From NCBI RefSeq assembly GCF_964204645.1, contig NC_134027.1, forward strand, positions 27,676,560 to 27,740,559: 64,000 bases of DNA. The letters run 5' to 3'. This stretch comes from Tubulanus polymorphus. Its lineage: Eukaryota; Animalia; Nemertea. The position numbers and the translations under genes are program-made. The notes below the pieces were generated by a model, which did not search any database, was not told where the DNA came from, and saw only the letters and a program-made list of their open reading frames with translations. This document shows, piece after piece, positions 22,393 to 52,234 of the stretch (positions are counted from its first letter, which is position 1; each line of letters starts with the position of its first letter).

Positions 22393-25300
22393 AATAGGGT
22401 GGTTGGTTGGTGAGTTGACTGGTTGACTTGTTGTGATGTTGAGATGTTGTGCACTAACTGGTAACCCCTATGAATCGAGGACGATAAGGTTTCTATGGTT
22501 CCGGTATTTCACTAGATTTATGTTGTTAAATTGTCAATGATCACGTGTTATCAACAGCAGCCAACTCTATAAACCATTCGCTATGATTACATCTTAATGA
22601 CGTATCTTATCTTTAATCTCCCAATTCAAACGAATCAAATCATGTTTGATTTAAGCATTTTTGGTGCTTCAATCGTCATTACAGATAGAATGCATTAACA
22701 AAACATTTAGAGACGAATCGAACTAGAAATAAAATTCTATTCATGTTTGTAGGAAAAATCATAATGAGATGTCGATCAGAAAAAACACGATATTTCAATT
22801 AAACGGTTCCACAGTAATTCACGGACCCGGACCCGGTTCCATCCACAGTAATTCACGGACCCGGACCCGGTTCCATCCACAGTTATTCACAGGACCCGGT
22901 TCCACCCACAGTTATTCACTAGCTAGCCCAGAGAGTTGATTCCCAGTGCTTCACTGCTCCGAGTTTCAATTTGACTTTATAAAGTTCAAACAATGTTAAT
23001 GAAATATAGTTTGAACTCAGCAGTTAGACTCTCACTCACAACTGCGGAACTGGATCGCACGTTTTAGTTAAACATAGGGAACGTGAGCTAGTCGGACTCT
23101 TCAAGCGGTAACTCAAAGTTTACTAAGTTTGAATTTAATTTCTAACTTTGTGAAAAATGTGAATAAAAGTATAATCGTAAACACAGAAAATATGGCAGAA
23201 AACTCGAATAGAAAATAAACCAACAATAATCTGGATATATGTTTAACAGAAACATACCTCGAGTGAATGACAACTGGTGTATCCGGATGAGACTGTTTGC
23301 GTGCTCTCTCTCCTCTCTCCTCTCTCCTCTCTCCTCTCTCTCGCCGATACTCGCGAGGATGATCGGGCAGAGAAACAAAATCGATGCATCAGCGACACAA
23401 ATCGTCGTAGCGTAGAAGATTGGAACTGACCAATCAGAGCCATGGGAAATCACGCAAGTATTCACTCATTTGTTAAATCAATATTCCCAGCGTCTGGTAT
23501 TAGTTCAACAGTTCGATTGTGTATATGTAATTACAGATCTATCTTTGAAGGTTCAGATACAAATTCGAAATAAGAAACATAATTTGGAGCAAGCATTTCT
23601 CAAGTGGTTGCTGAATGCTTACAATTCGATCGCGAAACAACAAATCAAGTTGATATGAAGCTTCTTTGTAAAGGAATTTGCGCACAATTCGGGAGGGAAT
23701 CTTATGAGATTTCTGATTTTTTATTAGTTAACGCTACTGGTCCTACAACTCATCGGTGAGATACTCTGGTGGCATTTTATATGTGTCTTTTTTCATGGAG
23801 CCAAAATCAATAAGAAATTGCATTGATCGAACCAGACCTTCAAGTCATACTACCGCGTCCTCGGCATGTGGTGAAATAGCTCTCTTTTGCCAGTTGTATT
23901 GATTTTACGTGTATATGTACAAAATCAGCAGGGACCGTAAATAAACTAGAAATATCACAAAAATAATACCACAAAAATAAGTTATTACCACTGATTAAGT
24001 TCTTATGAAATCTAACCCCTAAATTTCATCAATACTCTGTTTTAGTGTATACCCAGCCTGAGCGAGTCGACCTAGCGAGGCCCGACCTCAGATATCTCCA
24101 GTTGTGGCCAGTCACTCAACGAGGCTCGACCTCAGATCTTGTAGTCCCCTTTGAGAGACTGAAACAGTTTAATATCTGCCATATTGGAAAATAATGTTTA
24201 GGGATCGAGTGTCATTAGATCTCCGCTGATCACCTGATTTCAACATTCTCGCCCGAATATTCATTGAAACAACAAGAAAAATACTTACGAAGAAAATATT
24301 GTCGCCTGGTGGAAACATGGAGAATATAGTGATATATGCGTATAGGTGAAATGGGACATGGAGGTTTGTGTGTTTGGGGATTTTTCATGTAACTAGGGGT
24401 CCAGGGACATCGTGGTCACTTTGGACATGATTATAAGACTGGTGTACATCGCCCACAATACTTCAGCTGTCATTAAGTAAATGTTATAACCTTTCACTTG
24501 GTGTCAATCGATGGGTTATATTATTTGCAATAATATTGCATTATCAAATTTGCCGCCTTTAGGAATTAGAGGAAAGAAGCAGCTTTTTCTGTTTCGATGA
24601 CGTTTTGTGTGACTGTTAAACATCTCTCATTCGTAGTGGCTTATGAACAGTTTTTTATGGTTCTCATTGATGTGCGGTTACGGGCGCCAAAAATCTAGAA
24701 CGCGACTATAAATCTAGAACGCGACTGCTGTTCAACACAATACAGTACCGTACTGTTCAACTGAATACACTCAATACGTGTACGTTCGAAAGGATCACTT
24801 AAAACGTGTAACTTATTCGAACTATATTCAAGTTTCTAAGGAGAAATTAATTATATTTACTGGACTGTCAGAGCGACAGTTTTCACTGGATTCTCACATC
24901 TCTCCGACCGGTAAAACCTCTCTATCGTAAAGTAAGTATGACTACGTTTTTGTGAATCTGTGCAACAGGTTTCATATGTGAAGTTCATCTATAGGAACAA
25001 GTGAAATATTCTGCGGGATTATTCACGGGATTTACAGGATCCACGTTTTCTGGGGCGGCTCCAGGATTTTGCGAGGTGGGTTTCCAATAGAAATAGGATA
25101 CATCGTCTAAAAGGAGTGCTCCGAGGAGGGTAAGAATGCATTAGATGGGATCAGACAAATTTCAAAATTTCATCTCTAAGTGAAGGTATCCTACAACTTC
25201 TGACCAGAATCCCCCCCCCCCCCCCCAAATGAAAATTAAACGTGTCGCGTTGAAGAAATGACCCCCGACCTACAGCTTTTTCAGTTTTGTATTTTCAATT

Positions 25301-25424: not shown

Positions 25425-28400
25425 ATGGCTCTGCAATTATTTCTGAGGAATATCAGAAACCTGAAGCCGAAGACCGGCGTTAGTTTCAGTGCTTTAAACC
25501 GTTATACGACTTCGTCACAAACTGCAGACGATAGTAGACCTCGTTTGATAGCAACCATGAAACAGGGTGAAAAGGTATCTATATTCCAGTTTGTTCCTGT
25601 CCCATTTTGCGAGTGTCATTTGGCTTTTTACCAAGTTACATAACACATAGTGAATAATTGTCTCAATACCCGACAGTCTGATAAATGAGCTCGCATGATT
25701 TGAATAGACCAATCTCTAACAGTCGTGGTCATGGGATTGTCTATAGAATTCAGAATTTATTATCTTGTTTAGAATATATTCTTATCTACTGATCCGTATA
25801 TAAGTAATCCATGCGTATTGCAGACCTAAACCATACAATATATTTTTAATATTTGATGCCCAGTTATTTTCATTATTATTTATAACTTCATGCCTCACAA
25901 TGAGGTAGAGTCGTCTGTTTATTGTCTGTGAGTTTTAGCCAGTATTTTATAGCTCTTAGCTGAAAATGTAAATAAAGAGGGAATCTCCCCAAATCATCCT
26001 ATCTCAAAATACATTCTTGAAAAAGGGTTTGTTTCGTTGTTTAATAGGTTTGTTTCGTTGTTTAATAGGTTTGTTTCGTTGTTTAATAGGTTTGTTCCGT
26101 TGTTTAATAGGTTTGTTTCGTTGTTTAATAGGTTTGTTTCGTTGTTTAAAAGGTTTGTTTCGTTGTTTAATAGGTTTGTTTCGTTGTTTAATAGGTTTGT
26201 TCCGTTGTTTAATAGGTTTGTTTCGTTGTTTAATAGGTTTGTTTCGTTGTTTAAAAGGTTTGTTTCGTTGTTTAATAGGTTTGTTTCGTTGTTTAAAAGG
26301 TTTGTTTCGTTGTATAAAAGGTTTGTTTCGTTGTTTAATAGGTTTGTTCCGTTGTTTAATAGGTTTGTTTCGTTGTTTAATAGGTTTGTTTCGTTGTTTA
26401 AAAGGTTTGTTTCGTTGTTTAATAGGTTTGTTTCGTTGTTTAAAAGGTTTGTTTCGTTGTATAAAAAGGTTTGTTTTGTTGTATAAAAAGGTTTGTTTCG
26501 TTGTTTAAAAGGTTTGTTTCGTTGTTTAAAAGGTTTGTTTCGTTGTTTAAAAGGTTTGTTTCGTTGTTTAAAAGGTTTGTTTCGTTGTTTAATAGGTTTG
26601 TTTCGTTGTTTAATTTGTTTGTTTCGTTGTTTAATAGGTTTGTTTCGTTGTTTAATAGGTTTGTTTCGTTGCTTAATAGGTTTGTTTCGTTGTTTAAAAG
26701 GTTTGTTTCGTTGTTTAATAGGTTTGTTTCGTTGTTTAATAGGTTTGTTTCGTTGTTTAATAGGTTTGTTTCGTTGTTTAATAGGTTTGTTTCGTTGTTT
26801 AATAGGTTTGTTTCGTTGTTTAATAGGTTTGTTTCGTTGTTTAATAAGTTTGTTTCGTTGTTTAATAGGCGAGCGTGTTCTCAACAACTGAAATCGAAAA
26901 TAGAATATCGAAATTACGATCCAACATGAGTCAGAATGATATCGGCGGAATTGTGTTAACGTCATACCACAATATAAACTACTACACTGGGGGCTTCCTT
27001 TACTGTTATTTCGGGAGAAACTATGGTTTACTGGTTACACAGGACCAATGTTTACCCATATGCCCCAGTATTGATGCGGGTCAGCCCTGGAGGAGGTCAC
27101 TCATAGCCGATAATGTCGTCACTTATACAGATTGGCAGCGTGATAATTATTTCCATGCAGTACAGAATTGTCTGAAAGACACAAAAGGTAAAATAGGTCT
27201 CGAATTCGACCATGTCAGTTTGGATAATTTCAAGAAGTTCGATAAAGCTTTACCGAACGGCTCAGAGAAGGTCGATATCGGTGAGCCGACTATGAGAATG
27301 AGGATGGTGAAATCCGCTGAAGAAATCGACGTCATTAAATCTGGAACTGCTATAGCTGAAATAGGTGGCGCTGCACAGATCGATGCGTTACACGAAGGCG
27401 TACCCGAGCACGAGGTGGCGCTGGCGTCGACTCAAGCTATGATTCGTGAAATTGCTCACAGATATCCGCAATGTGAAATTATGGACAGTAAGTCTATAAA
27501 CTACAGGACTCCAGTTTAACAGTTGTGAGTTCAAATTCACTCATTGATTTTGAGGAACTGTGAAACCGGCTCCATTTGTTGCTGTCTTTATCCCAGTTTA
27601 AAATGTTAAATTGTTTCTAATTGTTTTAATGATATTATTCTGAAGCTTGGAGTTGGTTCATGTCTGGAGTAAACACAGATGGCGCTCATAATCCAGTAAC
27701 TACTCGTAAAGTGGAGAAAGGTGATATACTCAGTCTGAACTGCTTCCCGAATATTGCTGGGTAGGTATGACGTCACGATTATTTCTTCGTAAAACCGCTA
27801 GGGGGCAGCACTATTACTAGTTTGTTTATTTGAACAAGTTTATTGTGTTTCACAGTTTGTAATGTTTCTATTGAGTCATCTAATTTGTAATTTAGAGTCT
27901 CTGATCGAGTCGAGAAGAAACACATCCGTGATTGATTCGTCAGATGATCGCCTGATGATGGCTAATATTCAATACTACTTTTTGCACAGGTATCATATGG
28001 CTTTGGAGAGGACGCTATTTCTCGATCACGCTTCGGACAAACATCTGGAACTGTTTGAAAAGAACTGCGCCGTCCATCGTCGCGGTTTAGAACTAATAAA
28101 ACCGGGCGTTAGATGTAAAGATATAGCTCTTGAATTGAATGAAATGTATCGTCAGTTTGGGCTGTTACAATATCGTAGTTTTGGTTATGGTCATTCGTTT
28201 GGGTCATTGAGTCATTATTACGGACGAGAGGCCGGTAAGAACAGAAATACATCGTAGATATCCTATAGTTTCCAGGTGTTGAATATTAATTAGCATTAAT
28301 TAGCATAATTTTGCATATATTTGCATAAATTATTCAGTGAAAAATAGATAATTACATTATCTCATTCGTTCTTCATTATTGAAGTCTCGACTGTAAGACG

Positions 28401-28746
28401 GTGTTTACACAAATTTACATAAATCTGCATAAATTATCATATTTTAATATAGTAAAGATATTTATATTAATTTGCACGAATCTACATTAATTATCCTTAA
28501 AAAAATTCTAAAAATGAATGGGTTGGAATAATTCTTTCAATTTTAGCTCTAGAATTACGGGAAGATATTGAGACTGTATTGGAACCAAATATGGTAATAT
28601 CGATGGAGCCTATGATAACAGTACCGGAAGGAGAGGCTGGAGCTGGTGGTTACAGAGAACATCACATTGTAGTCATTACTGAAACAGGTGCTGATATTGT
28701 TACCAAATTTCCATTTGGTCCCGAACACAATATCATTAAAAAATAA
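25425..28746 (+). CDS. Creatinase-family (creatine amidinohydrolase, M24 pita-bread fold) paralog 1, divergent pocket, putative mitochondrial presequence; 442 aa
   Basis: Exons 25425-25574, 26869-27487, 27646-27760, 27990-28234, 28547-28746 (1329 nt, in phase, GT-AG). Creatinase motifs TSYHNINYY, FGR, QPWRR, YTDWQRDNYF, NTDGAHNPVTTRKV, LERTLFLDH, FGYGHSFG.LSHYYGREA, SMEPM, GAGGYREH, TKFPFGPEHNII. Confidence 0.93.
26026..26868. repeat. 21-bp minisatellite (gtttgtttcgttgtttaatag) forming the 3' end of creatinase-1 intron 1
   Basis: About 40 copies; the last unit supplies the acceptor AG at 26867-26868. Confidence 0.95.
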
Positions 28747-29421: not shown

Positions 29422-29660
29422 GAGGCCCGACCTCAGATATCTCCAGTTGTGGCCAGTCACTCAGCGAGGTTCGACCTCAGATATCACCAGTTGTGGACAG
29501 TCACTCAGCGAGGTTCGACCTCAGATATCTCCAGTTGTGACCAGTCACTCAACGAGGTTCGACCTCAGATATCTCCAGTTGTGACCAGTCACTCAACGAG
29601 GCTCAACCTCAAATATCTCCAGTTGCGGCCAGTCTCTCAGCGAGGCTCGACCTCAGATCT
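29422..29660. repeat. ~43-bp minisatellite upstream of creatinase 2
   Basis: About 5 copies; single-copy homolog at ~24078-24140. Confidence 0.88.
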
Positions 29661-30067
29661 TGTGGTCTCCTTTGAGAGACTGAAACAGTTTGATATCTGC
29701 TATATTGGAATGTACTGTAGGGCCGAGTGCCATTAGATCTCCGCTGATCACCTGATTTCAACATTCTCGCCCGAATAATCATTGAAACAATTGGCTACAA
29801 ATTTAAAACGTGACTAGCAAATCTAGAACGCGACTGTTGTTCAACACAACTGTTCACAGTATAAACTGATAGTCGATTACTGATCAATTGATACTAGAGT
29901 CACACTTAAAACTTTTGTTGTACTTTGTTCAAGTGTCGATTTTCTGATATGCGAGAAATTGATAATATTTACTGGATCAATCTGGTGGAGCCCGGCTCAA
30001 ACTGATAAAGGAAGGTGTCGCCACTGTAATCTCCGACTGGTAAACCGTGCCTTTCATTAGATAAGCA

Positions 30068-30727: not shown

Positions 30728-33700
30728 ATGGCTCTGCAATTATTTCTGAGGAATGTCAGAAACCTGAAGCCGAAGACCGGCGTTAGTTTCAGTGCTTTAA
30801 ACCGTTATACGACTTCGTCACAAACTGCAGACGATAGTAGACCTCGTTTGATAGCAACCATGAAACAGGGTGAAAAGGTATCTATATTCCAGTTTGTTCC
30901 TGTCAAATTTTGCGAGTGTCATTTGGCTTTTAACCAAGTTACGTAACACATAGTGAATAATTGTCTAGACAATTATCTAGACTCATATAAAAGATCTCTG
31001 ACACAGTTTGATAAAGGCCCTCGTGATACGAGTAGAACAAGGACATATAATATAATCGCGGTCAATTGATTTCTTATATAGAATTTAAAAGTTTTAGAAC
31101 TGAATTTATCGATTTAACAATTTGGACTAGAAATAGCTCTGACTAAAGATCGTACCTGATGATCGTTCAAATACCTGAATAATTTCTGTTTTAGACACGT
31201 GATTTGTTTCAACTCATACAAGGATACGTGTCTAATAAACAACCATTTTCCTGACGAGAATAAATTCTTATCTACAGATCCGTATATAGAATCACCCCTA
31301 TCTCAAGATAGCGTTTGTTTCGTTGTTTGATAGGTTTGTTTCGTTGTATAAAAAGGTTTGTTCCGTTGTTTAATAGGTTTGTTTCGTTGTTTAATAGGTT
31401 TGTTTCGTTGTTTAATAGGTTTGTTTCGTTGTTTAAAAGGTTTGTTCCGTTGTTTAATAGGTTTGTTTCGTTGTTTAATAGGTTTGTTTCGTTGTTTAAT
31501 AGGTTTGTTTCGTTGTTTAAAAGGTTTGTTTCGTTGTTTAATAGGTTTATTTCATTGTTTAAAAGGTTTGTTTCGTTGTTTGATGGGTTTGTTTCGTTGT
31601 AAAAAAAGGTTTGTTTCGTTGTTTAATGGGTTTGTTTCGTTGTATAAAAAGGTTTGTTTCGTTGTTTAATAGGTTTGTTTCGTTGTTTAATAGGTTTGTT
31701 TCGTTGTTCAAAAGGTTTGTTTCGTTGTTTAATAAGTTTATTTTCGTTGTTTAATAAGTTTGTTTCGTTGTTTAATAGGTTTGTTTCGTTGTTTAATAGG
31801 TTTGTTTCGTTGTTTAAAAGGTTTGTTTCGTTGTTTAATAAGTTTGTTTCGTTGTTTAATAAGTTTGTTTCGTTGTTTAATAGGTTTGTTTCGTTGTTTA
31901 ATAGGTTTGTTTCGTTGTTTAAAAGGTTTGTTTCGTTGTTTAATAAGTTTGTTTCGTTGTATAAAAAAGTTTGTTTCGTTGTTTAATAGGTTTGTTTCGT
32001 TGTATAAAAAGGTTTGTTTCGTTGTATAAAAAGGTTTGTTTCGTTGTTTAATAGGTTTATTTCGTTGTATAAAAAGGTTTGTTTCGTTGTTTAATAGGTT
32101 TATTTCGTTGTATAAAAAGGTTTGTTTCGTTGTTTAATAGGTTTGTTTCGTTGTATAAAAAGGTTTGTTTTGTTGTTTAATAGGTTTGTTTCGTTGTATA
32201 AAAAGGTTTGTTTCGTTGTTTAATAGGTTTGTTTCGTTGTATAAAAAGGTTTGTTTCGTTGTTTAATAGGTTTGTTTCGTTGTTTAATAAGTTTGTTTCG
32301 TTGTATAAAAAGGTTTGTTTCGTTGTTTAATAGGTTTGTTTCGTTGTATAAAAAGGTTTGTTTCGTTGTTTAATAGGTTTGTTTCGTTGTTTAAAAGGTT
32401 TGTTTCGTTGTTTAATAGGTTTGTTTCGTTGTTTAATAGGTTTGTTTCGTTGTTTAATAGGTTTGTTTCGATGTTTAAAAGGTTTGTTTCGTTGTTTAAT
32501 AGGTTTGTTTCGTTGTTTAATAGGCGAGCGTGTTCTCAACAACTGAAATCGAAAATAGAATATCGAAATTACGATCCTACATGAGTCAGAATGATATCGG
32601 CGGAATTGTGTTAACGTCATACCACAATATAAACTACTACACTGGTGGCTTCGTTTACTGTGCTTTCGGGAGAAACTATGGTTTACTGGTTACACACGAT
32701 CAGTGTACGACAGTTTGTCACGGTATTGATGGGGGTCAGCCCTGGAGGAGATCACTCATAGCCGATAATGTCGTCACTTATACAGATTGGCAGCGTGATA
32801 ATTATTTCCATGCAGTACAGAATTGTCTGAAAGACACAAAAGGTAAAATAGGTCTCGAATTCGACCATGTCAGTTTGGATAATTTCAAGAAGTTCGATAA
32901 AGCTTTACCGAACGGCTCAGAGAAGGTCGATATCGGTGAGCCGACTATGAGAATGAGGATGGTGAAATCCGCTGAAGAAATCGACGTCATTAAATCCGGG
33001 GCTGCTGTAGCCGATATAGGTGGCGCTGCAGGAGTCGACGCGTTACGTGATGGCGTACCCGAGCACGAGGTGGCGCTGGCGTCGACTCAAGCTATGATTC
33101 GTGAAATTTCTCACAGATACCCGCAATGTGAAATTATGGACAGTAAGTCTATAAACTACAGGACTCCAGTTTAACAGTTGTGAGTTCAAATTCACTCATT
33201 GATTTTGAGTCAAATTTGAACTCACAACTGTGAAACCGGCTCCAGTTGTTGCCATCTTTATCCCAGTTTAAAATGTTAAATTGTTTCTAATTGTTTCAAT
33301 GACATTATTCTAAAGCTTGGACTTGGTTCCAGTCTGGAATGAACACAGATGGCGCTCATAATCCAGTAACTACTCGTAAAGTGCAGAAAGGTGATATACT
33401 CAGTCTGAACTGCTTCCCGATGATATCTGGGTATGTATGACGTCACGATATTTTCGTCGTAAAACCGCTAGGGGGCAGCACCATCGCCGCACGCTGTATT
33501 TTTTCAAGATGTTGTGAACGGTCGAAATTTGATCCTTATTGAACTTACTTAAGCTCTTGAGAGCGTTTGTCGGTTTCAACAAAGTGTACACAAGTTTGTC
33601 TTATACCTCTAATACCTGCCAGGGATTTGAGTGTAAATAAAATAAGATTTAAAAAGATACTCTTCACTTTGCACAGGTATTATACGGCTTTAGAGAGGAC

Positions 33701-34417
33701 GCTATTTCTCGATCACGCTTCGGACAAACATCTGGAACTGTTTGAAAAGAACTGCGCCGTCCATCGACGCGGTTTAGAACTAATAAAACCGGGCGTTAGA
33801 TGTAAAGATATAGCTCTTGAATTGAATGAAATGTATCGTCAGTTTGGGCTGTTACAATATCGTAGTTTTGGTTATGGTCATTCGTTTGGGTCATTGAGTC
33901 ATTATTACGGACGAGAGGCCGGTAAGAACAGAAATACATCGTAGATATCCTTTAGTTTCCAATTGTTAAACATAAATTTGCATGAATTAGCATATTTTTG
34001 CATAAATTATTCTGAAGAAAAATAGATAATTACACGATTTCATTCTTTCTTCATTATTGAGGTCTCGACTGTAAGAAGGTTTTTTACGCCAATTTACATA
34101 AATCTGCATAAATTATTGTATTTTAGTAAAGATACTACATAAATTAACATATATCTGCATTAATTATCTTACAAGACTTCCAAAATGAATGGGTTGGAAT
34201 AATTTTTTCGATTTTAGCTCTAGAATTACGGGAAGATATTGAGACAGTATTGGAACCAAATATGGTAATATCGATGGAGCCTATGATAACAGTACCGGAA
34301 GGAGAGGCTGGAGCTGGTGGTTATAGAGAACATGATATACTAGTCATTACTGAAACAGGTGCTGAAAATATTACTAAATTTCCGTTCGGTCCCGAACACA
34401 ATATCATTAAAAAATAA
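30728..34417 (+). CDS. Creatinase (creatine amidinohydrolase) paralog 2, canonical motifs, putative mitochondrial presequence; 442 aa
   Basis: Exons 30728-30877, 32524-33142, 33316-33430, 33677-33921, 34218-34417 (1329 nt). Matches recalled Pseudomonas creatinase motifs IDGGQPWRR, ADIGGAA, DTWTWFQSG.NTDGAHN, NCFPMI.GYYTALERT, GGYREHDIL, ENITKFP. Confidence 0.95.
31314..32523. repeat. 21-22-bp minisatellite forming the 3' end of creatinase-2 intron 1
   Basis: More than 50 copies; same unit as 26026-26868. Confidence 0.95.
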
Positions 34418-39200: not shown

Positions 39201-42200
39201 GGATGAAATTAACCATAGACAATTTAAACACGCGTTCTCAAACGGATTAAATTAACCATACACAATTTAAACACGTGTTCTCAAACGGATGAAATTAACC
39301 ATACACAATTTAAACACGTGTTCTCAAACGGATGAAATTAACCATACACAATTTAAACACGTGTTCTCAAACGGATGAAATTAACCATACACAATTTAAA
39401 CACGCGTTCTATAACGGATGAAATTAACCATACACAATTTAAACACGCGTTCTCAAACGGATGAAATTAACCATACACAATTTAAACACGCGTTCTAAAA
39501 CGAATGAATGACGTGTAAAACATGAATCTCACTTACGCTGTAACTACTCAACAAATTGAAATCAGCTTTGATTAATTTTCTCGTCGGTGTCGGCGTTAAA
39601 CCGTCCTCAAATAGTTTCGTCCTCGACGTTTCAACTGAAATATATAAATAAAACTTCTGAATGAATTTACATGGAAGAAACAGAGCTGTTTATGAGAACA
39701 AGGATTAAAGAGACAGTAACAGATTCTACAGTTCATTTCTAAATCAAATAGTATTCATTTCAAGTTATATTCAGTGATTACTGGTGAGCAGCGATACCGT
39801 ACTGGTAGCAGCGATACCGTACTGGTACTGCAGCAGCGATACCGTACTGGTACTGCAGCAGCGATACCGTACTGGTACTGCAGCAGCGATACTGTACTGG
39901 TACTGCAGCAGCGATACCGTACTGGTACTGCAGCAGCGATACCGTACTGGTACTGCAGCAGCGATACTGTACTGGTACTGCAGCAGCGATACTGTACTGG
40001 TACTGCAGCAGCGATACTGTACTGGTACTGCAGCAGCGATACCGTACTGGTACTGCAGCAGCGATACCGTACTGGTAGCAGCGATACCGTACTGGTACTG
40101 CAGCAGCGATACCGTACTGGTACTGCAGCAGCGATACCGTACTGGTACTGCAGCAGCGATACTGTACTGGTACTGCAGCAGCGATACTGTACTGGTACTG
40201 CAGCAGCGATACTGTACTGGTACTGCAGCAGCGATACTGTACTGGTACTGTAGCAGCGATACCGTACTGGTACTGCAGCAGCGATACCGTACTGGTACTG
40301 CAGCAGCGATACCGTACTGGTACTGCAGCAGCGATACCGTACTGGTACTGCAGCAGCGATACTGTACTGGTACTGCAGCAGCGATACTGTACTGGTACTG
40401 CAGCAGCGATACTGTACTGGTACTGCAGCAGCGATACTGTACTGGTACTGCAGCAGCGATACTGTTACATGTATAGTATTATAGCAGACACAGTCAGGGT
40501 TTATAGTCGTACAGGCTGAGACAAAGTAAACCGTTTTAACGCTCTTTTTGATTGTAAAAGTCAGCACTTTTTAAGCATCTTGTAGACTGACTATGAACCC
40601 TGTCGGTAGAGTGTAGAGTTAAATTGTTAATTCTTACTACTAAAATTAGATGATTAACACCATGAACCCAGGGGAAGGTGTACAGTGCTCGAACCTCTCC
40701 GATTAAAGTCAGGGGAAGGTGTACAATACTCTAACCTCTCTGATTAAAGTCAGGGGAAGGTGTACAATACTGTAACCTCTCCGATTAAAGTCAGGGGAAG
40801 GTGAACAGTCGGCTATTGAAACCAAAACCCGATTATATAGTAGAAATTAAAATAGAAACTGTTTTAATTAATAATCATAAATCACCCGAGCTTTTTACAG
40901 GTTCTCGCAGGCCTGAAATGGAATAATTATCACTGTATATATGAAACACTAGTGACAGACGTGATAAATCTCTCATCATTACCTCCTGATATTGTATTCC
41001 TTCTTTGTAAATCACCTTTATAAATTACATACAAATAAACATTAAAATATTGAAACAAAAATAAATGAATTCACAACAAAAACTGAATCAAGAGAATCTT
41101 GAGATTTTACCGTAAGCGGTCGGTTTGAGTTGACGATGTTCACCGGCTGACCCTCGAATAGCTTCCATTAACTCCTCGCGAGGATCAAAATCACGTTTTG
41201 GAGGAGACTTCAACACTCGGTCTTTAGCCTGACAAAATATCATGACTCATCGTCAAAATAAAAGCCATGATTTATAGGTGTGTGATTGATACCGGTTCTT
41301 ACTGGATGTAACGGAGGTCTAGTACTTACCGGATGTAACGGAGGTCTAGATCTTATAAACTCTAATATCACTGCGTGCGCATCTTCTTTTACTTTAGCCG
41401 GCAATTTACTAGTTTCAATCTGTAGAATAAATCAGTAAGATTATTCTTTATTCAGAGGGAAGGAAGGAGGTAGAAGGGGAGGTAGGGAGGAGGGCATCCT
41501 CCCGTGGCAGGGATTTGATGGCATCGAGACTCATCACGGTATGAAACCCTGCCACTCTAGACCGAGTGCGCAGCTACATGCACAGCTTAGATGATGTCAT
41601 TATTTGCAATCAGATATCCCGCTTTATTTCAGCACAGGTTTTCCCATTTATAGTTCTTTTGTGAAATTTGCACAAGCGATTATACAACGAGCAATCTGAT
41701 TGGTGCCGCAAGTTTTCGTGCGGTAAAGCTGCGCATGTACCTGCGCACCCGGTCTAGTGTGGCAGGGGCCTTCATGCCGTGGCTGAGTGTAGCAAGTGAT
41801 GTCATCAGGTTGGAATCCCTGCCATGGAGGATGGATAGGGAGGTAGGGTGGTAGGATGGATAGGGAGGTAGTAGGGAGGGTGCCAGGATGGATAGGGAGG
41901 TAGGATAGATAGGGAGGTAGGAGGGAAGGTAGTAGGGAGGGTGGTAGGATGGATAGGGAGGTAGAAGGGAGGGTGGTAGTAGGGAGGGTGGTAAAATGGA
42001 TAGGGAGGTAGTAGGGAGGGTGGTAGGATGGATAGGGAGGTAGAAGGGAGGGTGGGAGGGAGGGTGGTAGGATGGATAGGGAGGTAGGAGGGAAGGTGGA
42101 AGGAGGGTTGTAGGATGGATAGGGAGGTAGTAGGGAGGGTGGTAAAATGGATAGGGAGGTAGTAGGGAGGGAGGTGGGAGGTAGGTATAATTTACCTGTA

Positions 42201-45200
42201 CTTTATTCAGTCTATATCTCCTGTATCTAATATCCTCCATTAACATCTCATAAGGCGTTAACTCATACTCTATAGACTGTGAATAATGATTTTGAGTTTT
42301 TTTGAGTTGAATTCCGGTTCTCATCTGTTTCAATACTTGAATCCATATTCGAGCCTATAATTAATCATCATAATTATAATTAACTAATCATAGATAACAG
42401 TGATGATGATGATGAACTCAATATCTGTATATTGATTGACTAATTATGTCTATTTCAACTCGGTTTGAAGGGACATCAAGTGGCCTAACTCATGTCAGTT
42501 TCAGTAGTACATATACCTGATATAGCTCGGTTTGAAGGGACATCAAGTGGCCTAACTCATGTCAGTTTCAGTAGTACATATACCTGATATAGCTCGGTTT
42601 GAAGGGACATCAAGTGGCCTAACTCATGTCAGTTTCAGTAGTATATATACCTGATATAGCTCGGTTTGAAGGGACATCAAGTGGCCTAACTCATGTCAGT
42701 TTCAGTAGTACATATACCTGATATAGCTCGGTTTGAAGGGACATCAAGTGGCCTAACTCATGTCAGTTTCAGTAGTACATATACCTGATATAGCTCGGTT
42801 TGAAGGGACATCAAGTGGCCTAACTCATGTCAGTTTCAGTAGTACATATACCTGATATAGCTCGGTTTGAAGGGACATCAAGTGGCCTAACTCATGTCAG
42901 TTTCAGTAGTACATACCTGTAGCTATCGGGTCTGGTATGTTGTACTCATAAAACTGACTGTTATATTGAAATAGAATAAGGACTATTGAGTCCACTGGGA
43001 GTCATGACCGGTATAATCATATTGATTGAGTATTTTAAGATCCGATGATTGGACTTTATTGATTGATTCTTTAAGATCTGATGATCTATGATGTGACTCT
43101 ATTGATTGAGTCTGTACCCTGTAATCAAATTCTTACCCAATCAACTCTTTCCAGATCTTCTAATTGTTTTTCCTCGTCTCGAACTTTTTCTTCGTTAAAC
43201 GATATTTTCTCGAGGAACGTCACTAATTCCTCAGCCTCGCTCACTAACGCTCGACATACAGCTCTATAGTGTGAATCACTGTCATCAGGTAAATGTCTAC
43301 GACAAACCTATAATAGATACACATAGACAGTGACAACAGACACCACAGGGAGGGAGGGGTCTCGAGGAAACTGCTGCAGCACTCACAGAAAACATACTTT
43401 TTAAAACTGATCTATTTTTGAAGTATTATTCTACTAGCTGCAGACTGCACACAGATATATTCAGCCAGATGAGTCCTCCCATCCCCCGTCTAGCTGATAT
43501 AATACTGTATCAGTGATTGAATAGATATAATAGTAAATTCTCCCGGGGACCCCCCCCCCTGTTAATGATATATGTAATACAGTATCTAATAGAAAACAGT
43601 AATTTCTAGTAATTGATCAGCAAAACAACAATCGCTATAATTACACATCTATCAACAGTATTTATATATCACATGACCAGTAAAATAATGTATAAAATTA
43701 CTCTCAATTACGGACAACAAACAACGCAAAAATAGATCAGATAAAAACATCGCGCAGTTGTTTTACCGTAACAGAACACCAGTCCAAAGTTAGTTAGGTT
43801 TATATAGAACCGAAATGAGCTTAGACTGGTCTTAAGTTGTTAGATTGTTTATAGAACAAGAATGTGACTGTGAAACTGGAACCAATTAATTTTACCTTCA
43901 AAACATCATTTAAAGTGAATGAATTCTGATTAATTGAATCATTTTCGATTCCTTCATCGTCGATTCCATCCGTTGATTCAGAGTGTTTCGACGAATCGGT
44001 CATTTTTAAGATGATTTCCTCGAGTTGTGAACTCAGTGAATGTTCCTCAGTCGCTTGTAAACCGTAGTCTAAAGCTCTGTATATCACAACTCCGAGAGAT
44101 TCCAATAACTGAAATAAACACGACTCCACATCATCCACCAGGTGTCACTAGTGTGCAGTAGGCACTAGAACATCAACAGTTTATGATCACGCCACAAGTG
44201 GAATCCACTATTGTCGCAGTAGTTGACAATAGAGGATTCCACATTTGTGGTATGAAAATCCACCAGGTGTCGCTAGTGTGCAGTAGGCCCACAATGCCGG
44301 ATTTTTACTCAGATTCAATTAAAATCAACCCATAATTTTCTAAAATTCAATTGAATGAATGGATTGGGAATGAGAAACCAGTGAAGGGGGGGGGGGGGGG
44401 GTAGAGAAGGTTGTTTCCGCGGAGAGAAGTAAAACTTAACCATTCAAATCATTTCTCAATTCTCTGATTTATAAACTATCATAGTATAATGAACTTGAGG
44501 AGGTAAGTTGTAATAGTTCATGTTAATAAAACTGTCTCTCACCAAATCATTATACAAACACTCTGAAAATATATCAGACTTATGAATCAATCTCAAACAT
44601 CTCTGACAGAGAAACAGGACCCGATACCGATCTTACATATGCTCCCTCCCTGTAGCCTCTCTCACACCCTCCCCCACAGTAGCCTCTCTCACACCCTCCC
44701 CCCACAGTAGCCTCTCAACCCCCTCAAGCCTGTAGCCTCTCTCACCCTCTCCCCCCACAGTAGCCTCTCTCACCCGCTACACACTTTGTAGCTAATTTAC
44801 CTGTGATTCTGTCTCTGCCAAATCTGAAAATACAAAACAGAACAATAGAAAAACAAAAAAAGAAATGAATTTAGGCCTACAAGTGGAATGAACAGTGATA
44901 AACTGTGTCTGTTGTGAAGAATGCGTGTCTGGTGTATCGTCTGGGGGGGTCAGAAGCTCAGCTCATTATCAATCCTGCACATTTGTTATCATGAAACACA
45001 ATTACCCATGAATTTGATGGAAGGGATCTAATGTTTTTGTAATCAATCAACTTGTTGTTCATAAAAATGAAATCAGTCAGACACAAACACAGATGAGTCA
45101 CCACACAGGAATTGTACGGTACTCCTCCCTGTTGTGTTGTTACCCTACTCAGCCCTCCTCTAACCCTGTATCCCTCACTGACCTCTCTCTACCCCTCCCT

Positions 45201-45506
45201 ACCTCCTCTTAACCTCTACCGATATACCATCTTACCTGTACAATCTCGAGCAGTCGTAGAAATGTGTCCATCTTTATGAATAAAAACTGATTGTAATCCG
45301 TTTAAACAGTAACACTGACTGGCGCCCTGTTCCACACCGTCCTCCCCGCTCCCTCCGCCCTTCACACAGTTCCATCTGTCTGATAAATAATACGCGCACT
45401 CGTAACAAACAGCCCAGGCCTGTTCCTCATTGATAGGAGCATTAAATACTTCAACTATCTCACTTAAAAGTCTTCCATCAGTATCATTACCGCTACCGGC
45501 CGCCAT
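36270..45506 (-). CDS. SPIRE: Protein Spire (KIND, 4x WH2, Spir-box, FYVE-type zinc finger); ~763 aa
   Basis: 16 in-phase exons: 45236-45506, 44801-44823, 43896-44108, 43137-43307, 42196-42354, 41330-41419, 41111-41228, 40983-41015, 40886-40912, 39537-39634, 38936-39071, 37931-38178, 37264-37401, 37082-37183, 36904-37001, 36270-36636. Motifs [79 protein letters not shown]...[12 protein letters not shown]. Confidence 0.95.
38203..38702. repeat. 30-bp minisatellite in Spire intron
   Basis: tcagtcatcaggggagtcatgtatctacaa, about 16 copies. Confidence 0.93.
39085..39505. repeat. ~45-bp minisatellite in Spire intron
   Basis: catacacaatttaaacacgtgttctcaaacggatgaaattaac, about 9 copies. Confidence 0.92.
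39788..40465. repeat. 24-bp minisatellite in Spire intron
   Basis: gcagcgataccgtactggtactgca, about 28 copies. Confidence 0.95.
41497..41830. mobile_element. Foldback/MITE-like element with ~90-100-bp imperfect terminal inverted repeats
   Basis: cctcccgtggcagggatt...cctgccactctagaccgagtgcgcagctacatgcacagctt is inverted relative to aagctgcgcatgtacctgcgcacccggtctagtgtggcagg...aatccctgccatggagg. Confidence 0.7.
42459..42917. repeat. ~68-bp minisatellite in Spire intron
   Basis: About 7 near-identical copies. Confidence 0.93.
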
Positions 45507-47592
45507 CTTTATTATTATTTCAATACATACGACATACAACGTACGACTTACAACATACACTAAACCGACATACAACTTACAACATACAACAAATTCAAAA
45601 TTACTTTATTTAATTCAATTAATAATTTATTGATGTGCCGTCCGGCGTGGTGCCGATTCAAAGATGTGTAAAATAAAGGGATCAACTTGATCCAAACCCA
45701 AAACATTCAAACCCGCAGTGTGTGTCATCATCAGGTAGGCCAAGACTATTAGGGCTCACTAATCAGATGCCGCAACGGGTGTCCCGGGACGCATTTCAGG
45801 GGTCCATCCCTTCATTTTTCCCTTCATGTGGAAAATGCAGTGAAATTGACTCATTCTGAAACTGAGGGCCGAGAACCCCTCATGCGTCGCCCGCATCGCG
45901 GCCTGCGAGCCAACCCGGCACAAATTTTTCCCGGCACCACTCCCTGAACGATATTCTATTTTCATCTTTTGAACTGAATGACGAAAATAGGTCAGTGCGT
46001 TTTAAGGCTACACCAGAAATTCTGAATTTTTGGCCTAAGTCGAAGTGACCTGCATTTACTGGCGACAATTCAATAGTGGATTTAAATATTGTATAAAGTT
46101 AATAGTGAATATTGTAAGTTTGACGGAAATCCTCCAATGACCTGTTTCGGTTATAATAGACGAATAATGCGTAATATGAAACGCATCACTATGTGACAGA
46201 TACTTGGTCGATATCAGAGGTGCATCCAGCGTGAGCCCCGTCATTCCGCAGTAGACAGACCAGCAGTGCGCCGTGGTGTCTACAGTAGAGAGAGAGGAGT
46301 GTCGCGGAGACCAGCAGTGCACGTGGTGCCTATAGTACAGAGAGGAGTCTCGTGGAAGATATCGTCAAAAACAAGGCAGAAAAAAGGAACTCACAATATC
46401 TGAACTTGACAGCCGCAGTTTTGAAACCAGGAGACGAGATGGAAAGATACAATGATAGTCGTTACCCGAGACATCACTTCTTGGGTATGTTAATATTATA
46501 GGTATACGATACTTGTTACTGTTGGTTTATTTTCTCGAGTCGGCTGATATAAATTCACGTAAAAACCAATTAGTAAATCAATGAAAAGAGCGTCCTGTGA
46601 AATCATTTGGATACCCGGTATTCATTAGATACCGGTATCGGATTTTCTAAGTTTTCTAACCTTTTCACTCGTGTTTCTGGATTGGTAAATATTAGAATAT
46701 GGAGAACAAGAAACCAACATTTCATCACCGGTAGTTACTAAGTATCACAGTTGTATAGGTAAAACAATTATCGATTCTCCTATTCTTTCAGGGAGGTTAT
46801 CTTCAGAAGGACCGAGCAACTGAAAATCTCTTCAACACAGCACCGAAATTTCAGAGAGTTTGAAACCAGGCAGCAAGAAGAAGATACTAAACCCCGGCCC
46901 GCTTAGACGTCACTTCTGAGGTTTGTTATACATGTACTATATTATATATTGTGGATACCGTGAATAGAATATAAAATGCATTATTAGGAAATCAATGAAA
47001 TAACGTATTGATATTGTTTATTTCTGGATGAATTGAAGTTACCTAAATGAACATTATACATAGAAAAAATAATTTACAATATATAATAGTCTATAATGAG
47101 TTATTAACATTTCCAATACAACAGCAAGGATGCCAAAAGAAACCTAAAGCTTGTAAAAATGATAACATTAGATAGATTATGAAAAAATGAATATAACTGC
47201 CTGATTCATTCATCCATATCATCATGATGATCTTTTCTCCTTATAACCTGACTTGGAACAGATGCTGCACGAATTTCTCTGCGCTGCATTTCTAGTTAAA
47301 CGGTGATATTCTTGTAAATGTTCTTCGAATCTTCCCTGAATTTCGATCTCGCAAAATACAGAAAATCCCATCATATTTGGTATCACTGCTGACTTGCTAG
47401 TACGCGGGATATTTCACTTGGAGGAGGAGTTAATACACTTTATTTGTATCCTTAATTAATCTTCCTTGACTCTTGTAGCCAGGTACCCTTATAGTTTTAC
47501 CAATATAGGCTGTGTTTATAAAACGAGATAAATCCCACAATAATGAAGCCAAAATTGTAAAGTTCTATATTAAAATGATTATATTTGAGGAG

Positions 47593-48399: not shown

Positions 48400-51300
48400 G
48401 CTAGACTTAATTTAGTTTAAACATTCGGCTCCTCGGCGCTCTGTGTGAAATTAGATTGGGTAGTGGGTGGATTAGACAAGACATTTCTGAGTTTGTCAGA
48501 CAGTCTGACCGCGGAATTTCGACCGGAGATCGAGCGCGATATTGAAAAGCCGGATCGTTCCGGGGCTCAAACGGGAGCCGAAATTCTTCCGGGCCCATGT
48601 CAGGGCGACATCCTGTCCTGACAGTCCGGCAGAGGATCACCCATTAGCTCAACAAATGTGCCGGCATAATGAATGGTCAGCTCTTTCGAAACTGTCTCAT
48701 CCAGTTGTCCGCGGCAGCGTGCAGCTGCACCGTCACTGCTTCAGTGCAGGCAGCTGGTCGCAGGAACGTCTTGAGGTGCTCCCCCTTCCTCCGCATCGCT
48801 TTCGGTACAACGCTCAGCTGGACAAAGTGGTGCGCCACTTGAAGAGCTCTATAGTAAGTTTTCGGCGACATCCCGGGTTGCTGGTGTCGCTGGGGGTGTC
48901 CTCCACCCGTGCTAGAAAATCCGCGACATCATCAAGCATTTCATCAACGATTTCCTCTAATTCATCTTCTGCCGGCAAATCATCGACAGCGGCAAGCTCA
49001 TCAACCATTGGTTCCTTCTTCTAATGGATCTGCGACTGGTCGCTTTTCCATCTAATAATAATAAAGATATAAAGATTATAAAGCGCGCACCTGTTTACCC
49101 TTGCGGTTTCATTTCCCAGTGTTCGCTAAATCTCTCTTTACTCGAGAAATAGATGCCACATTGATAAAGGTTATTCCCCTTGGAATTAGAAAAAAATCTA
49201 CCTCGTTAATTTCGTCGACAGCCGGCTCTGCTGCAGCTTCATCTAACTATTAACAATAAAAATTGATTATTTTTTCTTTATCATACATTCATACTTCATT
49301 TTTTACATATTACATTTATTTTATCTATTTATTTTTTCTATCATACATTAATCTCAATTAATTATGCATCTCCCGGCAGGCGCCACCGCATCTACCTAAT
49401 AACGATAGAAATTGATTATTATTTCGGATGAAAATAAACAGTGGGATTAAAGGGTTTGATAATTTCTGTGACAAAGAAATCATTTTTCTTAACAAAAATA
49501 ATCGATGATATAATTCGCTTATATTGCGAAGAACTTAAGAAATAATTGCCATGATTTACATTAAAAAACACAATAGATGCAAAATTAATAAAAAATGGTT
49601 ATTTCCATTGGAATTACAAGAAAATCTCCTACCTCATGAACCACTGGTTCCGCCTCCGGTTCATCCGCCGGTTCCGCCTCCGGTTCATCCGCCGGTTCCG
49701 CCTCCGGTTCCGCCTCCGGTTCCGCCTCCGGTTCCGCCTCCGGTTCATCCGCCGGTTACGCCGCCGGTTACGCCTCCGGTTCATCCGCCGGTTCCGCCTC
49801 CGGTTCCGCCTCCGGTTCATCCGCCGGTTCCGCCTCCGGTTCATCCGCCGGTTCCGCCTCCGGTTCATCCGCCGGTTCCGCCATTTCTCCATCTAACTAA
49901 TAACAATAAACATGAATTATTATTCCGGATGAAAATAAACAGTGGGATTAATGGGTTTGATTATTTCTTTAAAAATCTCTTACCACAACTTCTTTATTTG
50001 ATAAGAATTCGCGATAACGCGCGTCGTTCGGCCGCAGGCCATGTAATTGCGTTTTGAGGTGGTGGTCCAGCCGTTGGACCACTGCCCGGCACCCGCCAAT
50101 CGGGCAACGATACCTTCGTGGTATTAAAGCGAGTCGTTGAAAATAAAACATTCGGTATCATTAGTTTGTTTAGCTGTAGTTATAGTGGGATTTCTCTTGT
50201 TATTCATCATACATCGGGTAGTGAGGGTCGAGTGAGGGTCGAATGAGGGTCGAATGAGGATTAATGGGTTTGATAATTTCTTTAAAAATCTCTTACCACA
50301 ACTTCTTTATTTAATAAGAATTCCCGATAGCGCGGGTCGTTCGGCTGCAGGCCATGCCTGTTTGTAGGTGGCGGTCCAATCGCTTAACCACTGCCCGGCA
50401 CCCGCCAATCGGGCAACGATACCTTCGTGGTATTAAAGCGAGTCGTTGAAAATAAAACATTCGGTATCATTAGTTTGTTTAGCTGTAGTTATAGTGGGAT
50501 TTCTCTTGTTATTCATCATACGTCGGGTAGTGAGGGTCGAGTGAGGGTCGAGTGAGGGTTGAATGAGGGTCGAGTGAGGGTCGAGTGAGGGTCGAGTGAG
50601 GGTCGAGTGAGGGTCGAGTGAGGGTCGAGTGAGGGTCGAGTGAGGGTCGAGTGAGGGTCGAGTGAGGGTCGAGTGAGGGTCGAGTGAGGGTCGAGTGAGG
50701 GTCGAGTGAGGGTCGAGTGAGGGTCGAGTGAGGGTCGAGTGAGGGTCGAGTGAGGGTCGAGTGAGGGTCGAGTGAGGGTCGAGTGAGGGTCGAGTGAGGG
50801 TCGAGTGAGGGTCGAGTGAGGGTCGAGTGAGGGTCGAGTGAGGGTCGAGTGAGGGTCGAGTGAGGGTCGAGTGAGGGTCGAGTGAGGGTTGAATGAGGGT
50901 CGAATGAGGATTAATGGGTTTGATAATTTCTTTAAAAATCTCTTACCACAACTTCTTTATTTAATAAGAATTCCCGATAGCGCGGGTCGTTCGGCTGCAG
51001 GCCATGCTCGTTGTAGGTGGCGGTCCAATCGCTTAACCACAGCGCGGCACCCGCCAATCGGGCAACGATACCTTCGTGGTATTAAAGCGAGTCGCTGAAA
51101 ATAAAACATTCGGTATCATTAGTTTGTTTAGCTGTAGTTATAGTGGGATTTCTCTTGTTATTCATCATACATCGGGTAGTGAGGGTTGAGTGAGGGTCGA
51201 GTGAGGGTTGAATGAGGGTCGAGTGAGGGTCGAGTGAGGGTCGAATGAGGATTAATGGGTTTGGGTTCGTTCGGCCGCAGGCCATGCAATAGATTTCTAT

Positions 51301-52234
51301 GAATGCCGTGTATGTTTTTGTCTGCAGGTGGCGGTCTAACCTTCTTACTTTCGCCGGACAACCGCCAATAGGGCAACGATAACGGCTTGCGGCGAGCACC
51401 AAAGCTAGTCTCTGAAAATGTAATATTCGGAATCATTCCAGTGGAGAATTGAAACAATTGAAACAAATGCCATATTAATAAAAAAGGTTATTTCCATTGA
51501 AATTAGTGAAAATCTTACACCTCGTTCGTTGCGAGAAAGTCGGCGACATCTTCTTCGGCTGATGCATCTGCGATATCTGCTGCATGTACGGTATCTGCGA
51601 CAGCGGACATTGCATCTACGACTAGCAGCTGTTTTGCCAACTGGGCCGTCATTATTCGGTGCAGGCAGCTGGTCGTCTCCAGATGGTCCTTCTGATGGTT
51701 CGCGGTACATCGCTCAGCTGTGCAAAGTGGTGCGCAGAATTTCGACCGGAAATCGAGCGCGATATTGAAAAGCCGGATTGTTCCGGGGCTCAGACGGGAG
51801 CCGAAATTCCTCCGGGCCCATGTCAGGGCGACATCCTGTGCTGACAGACAGTCCGGCAGAGGATCACTCATAAGCTCAACAAATGTGGCAGCATAATGGA
51901 TGGTCAGCTCTTTCGAAACTGTCTCCATCCAGACGTCCGCGGCAGCGTGCAGCTGCACCGTCACTGCTTCGGTGCAAGCCGCCGGCCGCAGGAACATCTT
52001 CAGATGGTCCTTCTTCCTCCGAATCGCTTTCGGACCAGAGCTCAACTGGGCAAGGTGGTGCGCCACTTGAAGAGCTCTATAATAAGTTTTCGGCGACATC
52101 CCGGGTTGCTGGTGTCGCTCAGGGCGTCCTCCGCCCTTGCTGGTCTTCTCAGCTGGTGGTCGTTTCTTCTTAGATCGCTCCGTTGACAGATATTTCGGCG
52201 AGGTTGCCTTCGTCAGTGTCAGTGCAGGAATCAT
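48400..52234 (-). pseudogene. Unknown GC-rich spliced gene with duplicated C2H2-like zinc-finger cassettes, partly decayed (TE- or virus-like)
   Basis: Intact 239-aa ORF 51515-52234; frameshifted second copy of its core at ~48480-48890; four cassettes encoding YRCPIGGC..V.RLD.HL (~50000-50140, 50270-50450, 50930-51100, 51260-51415), two with the acceptor mutated AG>AA; acidic (AEPADEPE)n exon-like block 49633-49892. Confidence 0.5.
50526..50908. repeat. 11-bp minisatellite (gagtgagggtc)
   Basis: About 34 copies; short versions at ~50220 and ~51180 within the duplicated cassettes. Confidence 0.95.

What the first reader, a model, noticed from the sequence alone, without database searches (positions are those of the whole stretch)
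26990..28710. Paralog 1 differs from paralog 2 in clusters around the substrate pocket: candidate new guanidino-hydrolase specificity
Seen (copy 2 > copy 1): YCAFGR>YCYFGR, TTVCHGIDGG>LPICPSIDAG, ADIGGAAGV>AEIGGAAQI, WTWFQSG>WSWFMSG, FPMISG>FPNIAG, YYTALE>YHMALE, REHDIL>REHHIV, ENIT>DIVT. At most of these sites copy 2 matches the bacterial consensus as I recall it. Residues recalled as catalytic or binding in P. putida creatinase (His232 in GAHN, Glu262, Glu358, Arg64, Arg335) are intact in both copies, while neighbouring positions (next to Phe62/Arg64, Tyr258>His) change. Copy 1 has no stops or frameshifts. Inference: neofunctionalisation toward another guanidino compound, such as an invertebrate phosphagen precursor (glycocyamine, taurocyamine, lombricine), or a heterodimer with asymmetric sites, since the pocket is built from both subunits.
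Basis: partly seen in the sequence, partly recalled or inferred. Interest (0 to 1): 0.85.

Follow-up and report, generated by a model that had tools for sequence, protein, structure and literature searches.

The report
Ribbon worm creatinase with remodelled pocket
A ribbon worm has two side-by-side copies of a creatine-splitting enzyme gene that are almost identical except in four patches, where one copy has replaced residues that its relatives keep; gene conversion likely erased the other differences while selection likely preserved these, which would make that copy an enzyme with a changed, still untested substrate preference.

Summary
Two intact five-exon creatinase genes lie in tandem; NCBI annotates the matching proteins as Tubulanus polymorphus creatinase-like. 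They differ at 32 of 442 residues. That fits an old duplicate homogenised by gene conversion, with patches held apart. Copy 1 carries most derived changes (17 against 4). Six of its residues occur in none of about 279 homologues, including Tyr258His. The catalytic and carboxylate-binding residues (roles recalled) and the reading frame are intact. Best reading (0.5): selection keeps copy 1 as an altered amidinohydrolase; glycocyamine is my top substrate guess. Main rival (0.3): relaxed selection. Enrichment at the pocket was not shown: the tests were not significant and no 3D distances were available. Spliced copy-2 transcripts exist; copy-1 expression is untested. The scan's earlier notes hold only bacterial creatinase cassettes.

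The parts
25425..25574 (+). Copy 1 exon 1 (codons 1-50); the first 32 residues look like a mitochondrial presequence (inferred)
   Evidence: 5 R/K, 0 D/E, 7 S/T in residues 1-32; an X4 contig joins exon-1 letters to 26867 (copy not distinguishable there)
26026..26868 (.). Tandem repeat of about 21 bp filling the 3' part of intron 1; its last unit supplies the splice acceptor; copy 2 has the same array
26869..27487 (+). Copy 1 exon 2 (codons 51-256)
26989..27096 (+). Divergence patch 1 (codons 91-126): N-domain loops 94-99 and 116-122, which lie in the modelled subunit interface
27097..27341 (+). 245-nt run identical in both copies (likely conversion tract)
   Evidence: X2 contig 1 joins copy-1-type patch 1 to this run
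27340..27396 (+). Divergence patch 2 (codons 208-226): helix 200-223, with A210T, D214E, G220Q, V221I
27454..28005 (+). Divergence patch 3 (codons 246-300, spanning introns 2 and 3 and exon 3 at 27646-27760): T259S, Q262M, M292N, Y297H, T298M; holds His271; intron 3 is the most diverged of the short introns
27990..28234 (+). Copy 1 exon 4; no amino-acid difference from copy 2 after codon 298; holds Glu301, His363, Arg374
28547..28746 (+). Copy 1 exon 5 with the stop codon; holds Glu397, His415
28651..28716 (+). Divergence patch 4 (codons 412-433): D416H, L418V, E426D, N427I, I428V on strands 416-420 and 425-427
30728..34417 (+). Copy 2, near-canonical creatinase (exons 30728-30877, 32524-33142, 33316-33430, 33677-33921, 34218-34417)
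   Evidence: spliced copy-2 contig in X5
24076..24272 (.). Upstream block 90% identical to 29597-29790; shows that the duplicated unit includes upstream DNA

Best explanation
Copy 1 is an intact tandem duplicate of a creatinase gene that differs from copy 2 almost only in four patches; gene conversion likely keeps the rest identical, and selection likely protects the patches because they give copy 1 a changed substrate pocket, so copy 1 is predicted to be a working amidinohydrolase with shifted specificity or kinetics. Shown: gene structure, mosaic divergence, excess of derived changes in copy 1, intact catalytic set. Inferred: conversion, selection on the patches, mitochondrial targeting. The chemistry would stay that of creatinase (His271 activates water, Glu301 and Glu397 hold the amidino group, Arg100 of the partner subunit and Arg374 hold the acid group, urea is released; roles recalled). 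Met292Asn and Tyr297His, likely cross-strand neighbours, would turn a greasy pocket wall polar, and the partner subunit's loops 94-99 and 116-122 are reshaped. The changes in helix 200-223 and strands 416-428 would be packing compensation. The simplest new substrate is the N-demethyl analogue guanidinoacetate (glycocyamine), giving glycine and urea. I put that specific guess at about 0.2 overall.
For: Mosaic: dS 0.33 in 132 patch codons against 0.010 in 310 others; 17 of 19 silent codon changes lie within 6 codons of a replacement (37% of codons do, p=5e-5); intron 3 and the flanks barely align, so the duplication is old. A peak of divergence in converted duplicates is the published signature of selection (PMC3924837, passages; bioRxiv 2020.08.04.234435, abstract). 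Patches 1, 2 and 4 lie inside exons, with near-identical exon ends. Copy 1 has 17 unique changes against 4 (Tajima p=0.005; p<0.05 with 6 of 8 outgroups), with branch lengths 0.079 and 0.018. 11 of 31 differences are in columns at least 90% conserved, against 5 of 61 for changes shared by both copies (Fisher p=0.0025). No indel in the patches, where about 9.6 are expected for a neutral copy at the intron indel rate. The changes are milder than random (mean BLOSUM 0.29 against -0.58 +/- 0.39). Six distant creatinase-like proteins (five keep all five of His/Glu/Glu/Arg/His, one keeps four) vary at the same columns and some use copy 1's own residues: P116 in 2 of 6, E214 in 2, H297 in 1, M298 in 1, V418 in 3. 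The fold is predicted unchanged (pTM 0.86 for both copies; 1.5 A to 1CHM).
Against: Copy 1's polarised changes hit near-invariant columns at the neutral rate (9 of 17, or 10 with A116P, against 9.1 expected), and its sparing of the deep core is not significant (P 0.26-0.41). dN/dS in the patches is 0.38, not above 1. The patch edges were drawn from the data, which inflates the contrast; on silent sites alone the longest identical run gives p=0.17 and the three longest p=0.012. No enrichment near recalled pocket residues or at the interface. The overlap with columns that vary in distant enzymes gives p=0.10. D416H hits a column kept in 277 of 278 homologues and 6 of 6 distant enzymes; His there was seen only in 2 of 13 catalytically degenerate proteins. 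No orthologue of copy 1 came up in another species. No call tested activity, and expression of copy 1 is untested.
Confidence: 0.5

Rival explanations
1. Relaxed selection: copy 1 is a little-used spare that has drifted; conversion resets parts of it, and the patches are stretches that diverged enough to escape conversion.
For: Invariant columns are hit at the neutral rate. Absence of stops alone is unremarkable (P 0.16-0.30). D416H and two new prolines (113, 116) at the end of a predicted strand look damaging. A Lineus paralogue (P0003) has lost Glu397 and Asn288, so decaying or catalytically dead duplicates occur in this family.
Against: No indels where about 9.6 are expected (an upper-end estimate). 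Changes are chemically mild. All recalled catalytic residues are kept. Copy-1 patch letters recur with 0-2 differences in read contigs of sample S2.
Confidence: 0.3
2. Copy 1 works as a partner subunit: heterodimers with copy 2 have asymmetric or tuned sites, because the N-domain loops of one chain complete the other chain's pocket.
For: The modelled copy 2-copy 1 pair scored 0.93 against a best control of 0.00. The mark was reached by 116 of 157 solved complexes and 2 of 215 mismatched pairs (eukaryotes: 39 of 65 solved pairs with no like complex, 2 of 126 unrelated); the runs agree in at least 94% of contacts and partner pLDDT is at least 90. Solved creatinases with like chains exist, so the pass shows likeness, not binding. 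67 of 74 interface residues are identical. Both copies left the consensus at interface sites 116 and 265.
Against: Copy 1 keeps a full catalytic set, so it does not need a partner to work. Changes are not enriched at the interface (p=0.34).
Confidence: 0.08
3. The patches came in by conversion or recombination from a third, more distant creatinase paralogue, so copy 1 is a chimera and was not remodelled in place.
For: Very dense local divergence (14 nucleotide changes in codons 101-120). The whole genome could not be searched.
Against: A search with residues 205-305 found no protein carrying the patch residues among the best 120 listed of 6635 hits. No other T. polymorphus-named protein was in the listed hits.
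Confidence: 0.06
4. Assembly artefact: two alleles placed in tandem, or copies blended in polishing.
For: Long identical runs between the copies.
Against: The flanks of the two copies have no match elsewhere in the window. Read contigs hold copy-1-specific and copy-2-specific forms side by side, and one contig joins patch 1 to the identical run.
Confidence: 0.03

Closest known systems
Bacterial creatinase (creatine amidinohydrolase, EC 3.5.3.3): P. putida 1CHM, Alcaligenes 7YTO, Actinobacillus 1KP0
   Same: 58-61% identity, same two domains and fold (TM 0.95-0.97 by target, rmsd 1.5-1.7 A); same His/Glu/Glu/Arg/Arg/Phe set.
   Different: Animal gene with four introns and a 44-residue N-terminal extension. 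Copy 1 replaces Asp175, Gln223, Met253, Tyr258, Asp377 and Asn388 (P. putida numbers) with residues seen in none of 278-279 homologues. Activity of either copy is untested.
Duplicates kept apart by selection under gene conversion: human red/green opsins (PMC3924837, passages) and Leptodactylus ATP1A1 (bioRxiv 2020.08.04.234435, abstract)
   Same: Tandem pair, homogenised background, peaks of divergence around amino-acid differences.
   Different: There the differences are shared across species and the function was measured; here there is one species and no assay. Here exons are homogenised more than introns, the reverse of the opsin case.
Distant creatinase-like proteins of unknown substrate (P0307, P0319, P0357, P0379, P0395, P0414)
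   Same: Keep the catalytic set (one has His at the Glu301 column) and vary at columns 116, 214, 262, 292, 297, 298, 418.
   Different: 27-39% identical to copy 2, unnamed, and all keep Asp416; any shared residues would be convergent.
Metal-dependent pita-bread peptidases (prolidase, aminopeptidase P, MetAP; Pfam PF00557)
   Same: C-terminal fold.
   Different: Both copies have Asn288, Ala299 and His415 where prolidases align Asp, Asp and Glu (metal-ligand role recalled) and score far below every NCBIfam peptidase cut-off.

Membership tests
Creatinase (EC 3.5.3.3) | Creatinase_N plus M24 domains, about 400 aa mature | tested here: met
   both copies
Creatinase (EC 3.5.3.3) | Fold superimposes on solved creatinases | tested here: met
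   copy-1 model: rmsd 1.5 A to 1CHM
Creatinase (EC 3.5.3.3) | His232, Glu262, Glu358, Arg64, Arg335, Phe62 present (roles recalled) | tested here: met
   both copies
Creatinase (EC 3.5.3.3) | Family-invariant Tyr258, Met253, Gln223, Asp175, Asp377 | tested here: not met
   copy 1 differs at all five; copy 2 has all five
Creatinase (EC 3.5.3.3) | Dimer with the pocket built from both subunits | tested here: inconclusive
   only the mixed pair was modelled; 0.93 against control 0.00, by likeness to solved creatinases
Creatinase (EC 3.5.3.3) | Hydrolyses creatine to sarcosine and urea | not testable with these tools
   needs an assay
M24 metallopeptidases | Asp/Asp/His/Glu/Glu metal-ligand set (recalled) | tested here: not met
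   Asn288, Ala299 and His415 at three of those columns
Duplicates maintained by selection against gene conversion | Close tandem pair with homogenised background and old flanks | tested here: met
Duplicates maintained by selection against gene conversion | Peaks of silent divergence around replacements | tested here: met
   p=5e-5; silent-only run tests p=0.17 and 0.012
Duplicates maintained by selection against gene conversion | Paralogue-specific residues shared across species or fixed in populations | tested here: inconclusive
   no orthologue among the listed hits; copy-1 letters seen in one laid sample
Duplicates maintained by selection against gene conversion | Measured functional difference | not testable with these tools
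   needs an assay

The most novel reading that the evidence does not exclude
Copy 1 is the first creatinase-fold enzyme to split a guanidino compound other than creatine (glycocyamine first, taurocyamine or guanidinopropionate next), evolved in an animal mitochondrion, and gene conversion has stripped the pair down to the short list of co-adapted residues that switch specificity.
Probability: 0.3. Interest if true: 0.72.

Novelty: new variant of a known kind. Interest (0 to 1): 0.47.

Why it matters
I found no study of an animal creatinase gene in the held library; one paper reports the activity in nematode homogenates without finding a gene (PMC3655251, passages). A pair that is 93% identical, with its differences packed into four swappable patches, is a ready-made experiment on what sets specificity in an enzyme used in clinical creatinine assays (PMC7568399, passages and section 7), and a clean candidate for selection against gene conversion in a little-studied phylum. 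If copy 1 is merely relaxed, it is an ordinary duplicate.

Tried and rejected
Expression. No RNA holder was listed on record. Laid contigs of X4 and X5 are spliced (312-nt GT..AG skip), so they behave as RNA. X5's exon-5 piece carries 11 copy-2 letters and the copy-2 3' end. No copy-1-specific spliced contig was among the pieces shown (18 pieces were not shown), and the word shares of X4 and X5 (0.29, 0.25) equal the copy-2-only value of 0.283 rather than 0.588. Contigs drop rare variants, so this does not show silence. One 39-letter X4 contig (depth about 100, beside forms at about 800) matches copy 1 exactly at 28546-28584, but its one diagnostic site also has the copy-1 letter in X5's copy-2 transcript, so it is only a hint. 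The matching read layout on copy 2 was not obtained. 3D mapping: no tool returns coordinates; neighbour relations come from the secondary-structure string, the interface list and recalled geometry. Papers on creatinase contacts were not held and two searches found none, so pocket roles are recalled; Teshima and Innan 2008 was not held. AlphaFold models of the two copies look alike and do not discriminate. Recent duplication plus a burst of selection was rejected because silent sites, intron 3 and the flanks are diverged. Intron-driven blocking of conversion was rejected for patches 1, 2 and 4, which lie inside exons. Regained metal-peptidase activity was rejected. The Atlas search gave only creatinase/M24 clusters. 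No genome was held. Earlier-findings look-ups gave seven bacterial notes and two blanks. Nothing on nemertean phosphagens was found (2 listings, neither on nemerteans by title; 0 hits for the word).

Full report
What is there. The window is intron- and repeat-rich animal DNA; no whole genome was held. Two five-exon genes lie head to tail on the + strand, at 25425-28746 (copy 1) and 30728-34417 (copy 2). Exon lengths are identical, all introns are GT..AG, and each gene gives 442 residues. The products read the same as two NCBI proteins named creatinase-like of Tubulanus polymorphus, P0001 and P0121. Both carry Creatinase_N and Peptidase_M24. The copy-1 model matches solved creatinases at 1.5-1.7 A. 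The first 32 residues are basic with no acidic residue, which suggests a mitochondrial presequence (inference). Neighbouring genes (KIND domain, LicD, cytochrome P450) have no evident link.

The observation. All eight motif changes are real; 51 codons differ, 32 by residue and 19 silently. Those 279 are the listed top hits of three searches plus cluster members, redundant and a small part of the 7974 found. Copy 2 has the majority residue at 17 of 31 mature sites, copy 1 at 5, neither at 9. Glu214, Met262, Asn292 and His297 occur in 0 of 279, His416 and Ile427 in 0 of 278. Tyr97 is ordinary (28 of 268, and in 7YTO and 1KP0). Copy 2 is not fully canonical either: His116 (0 of 272), Met265, Ser246.

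59 of 63 nucleotide differences fall in four patches covering 132 codons (dS 0.33, dN 0.125). The other 310 codons have dS 0.010, with identical runs of 245, 182 and 176 nt. Silent changes follow the replacements (17 of 19 within 6 codons, p=5e-5). Intron 2 is 96% identical, intron 4 88%; intron 3, most of intron 1's unique part and the flanks reach only 68-76% in forced alignments. A recent duplication cannot give this; an old one with repeated gene conversion can. The patch edges were chosen from the data, and tests on silent sites alone are weaker (p=0.17 and 0.012). A review describes such divergence peaks as the signature of selection against conversion, with red/green opsins as the example (PMC3924837, passages). 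The frog ATP1A1 pair is a second case (bioRxiv 2020.08.04.234435, abstract only).

It is not an artefact. The flanks are unique in the window. Contigs of two unspliced runs from one sample hold copy-1-specific pieces with no other letters; X2 also holds a copy-2-type piece, and one X2 contig joins copy-1 patch 1 to the identical run.

Which copy changed, and how. With the nearest outgroup P0002, 17 changes are unique to copy 1 and 4 to copy 2 (p=0.005; 6 of 8 outgroups give p<0.05). Branch lengths are 0.079 and 0.018 in a 41-row tree of hand-picked sequences. Differences fall on near-invariant columns more often than ordinary divergence does (11 of 31 against 5 of 61, p=0.0025, conservation from 43 non-redundant of 174 sequences, two dropped for length). 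That rate is, however, what a neutral gene would show (9-10 of 17 against 9.1). Two results speak against full neutrality. There is no indel in the patches, where about 9.6 are expected at the rate seen in introns 2 and 4 (8 per 44 substitutions). The changes are also milder than random (about 2.2 SD). Absence of stops and sparing of the deep core are not significant on their own. By contrast the Lineus paralogue P0003 departs at 5 of 54 deep-core columns, including Glu397, where copy 1 departs at 1.

Where the changes sit. In both models residues 292-293 and 296-297 are paired strands, so Asn292 and His297 are likely neighbours; 210, 214 and 221 share a face of helix 200-223; 416-420 and 425-427 are successive strands (inference from secondary structure). 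The modelled mixed dimer scored 0.93 against a best control of 0.00 (mark reached by 116 of 157 solved and 2 of 215 mismatched pairs; run agreement at least 94%, pLDDT at least 90; a pass by likeness to solved creatinases). It puts loops 94-99 and 116-122 in the interface along with the His271 loop and 370-374. So patch 1 plausibly reshapes the lid that one subunit lends the other. Formal enrichment was not found: 7 of 31 changes at 74 interface positions (p=0.34), and p=0.19-0.48 for closeness in sequence to 11 recalled pocket residues. Residues 299-415, with Glu301, His363, Arg374 and Glu397, have no change, so the changes fall on one side of the pocket only. Among 30 near-full-length distant hits, six divergent proteins that keep all or nearly all of the catalytic set vary at the same columns (mean 0.70 against 0.53, p=0.10) and sometimes use copy 1's residue, but all keep Asp416.

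Mechanism. Most likely copy 1 still splits urea from a guanidino acid by the creatinase route, with a more polar wall at 292/297 and reshaped partner loops, and the buried changes compensate. That would favour a substrate with N-H in place of creatine's N-methyl, so glycocyamine, a phosphagen precursor in many invertebrates, mainly annelids (PMC6429109, passages; the word nemert- does not occur in it). This step rests on recalled contacts of the 1CHM complex; the structural papers were not held. Copy 2 is likely the ordinary creatinase, and spliced copy-2 transcripts exist. Expression of copy 1 is untested.

Literature seen. PMC7568399: passages and section 7. PMC11685841, PMC8438212, PMC3655251, PMC6429109, PMC3924837: passages. 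The frog preprint: abstract. No supplements were read. Searches for animal or nemertean creatinase and for creatinase with other guanidino substrates (25 of 80 listed, judged by title and abstract start) showed no study of this. Most subscription journals are not searched.

Verdict. A real and unusually clean mosaic duplicate. Selection-maintained change of function 0.5, relaxed selection 0.3, heterodimer 0.08, chimera 0.06, artefact 0.03. It is a new variant of a known enzyme, shaped by a known evolutionary process, and directly testable. Interest 0.47.

Noticed in passing
P0003 / P0123 (Lineus longissimus creatinase-like): A second nemertean has an independent creatinase duplicate in which one copy has lost Glu358 (to Val) and Asn249 (to Ser): a likely dead or non-catalytic paralogue.
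   Followed up: partly
P0285, P0286, P0298, P0300, P0320, P0323, P0330, P0338, P0351, P0359, P0360, P0366, P0385: Thirteen near-full-length creatinase-like proteins lacking two or more of His/Glu/Glu/Arg/His: a possible pseudoenzyme group.
   Followed up: no
P0307, P0319, P0357, P0379, P0395, P0414: Distant creatinase-like proteins that keep the catalytic set with a different pocket: candidate amidinohydrolases of unknown substrate.
   Followed up: partly
tree: Named animal creatinases (nemertean, hemichordate, sea urchin, mantis shrimp) fall on one side of a weakly supported split (87/77) from the named bacterial ones; the Amorphochlora protein sits among bacteria. No root, so no transfer claim.
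   Followed up: partly
window 26026-26868 and about 31300-32523: Intron 1 ends in a tandem array whose unit holds an AG; only the last unit serves as acceptor in the models.
   Followed up: no
window 41680-45605, - strand: Exons with a KIND domain, Spire-like by recall.
   Followed up: no
window 53608-54486 and 56861-60772, - strand: A LicD-family gene and a cytochrome P450 gene.
   Followed up: no
window 48510-48913 / 51733-52141, 49945-51250, 61192-61516 / 63676-64000: Further dispersed duplicated blocks, 89-97% identical.
   Followed up: no
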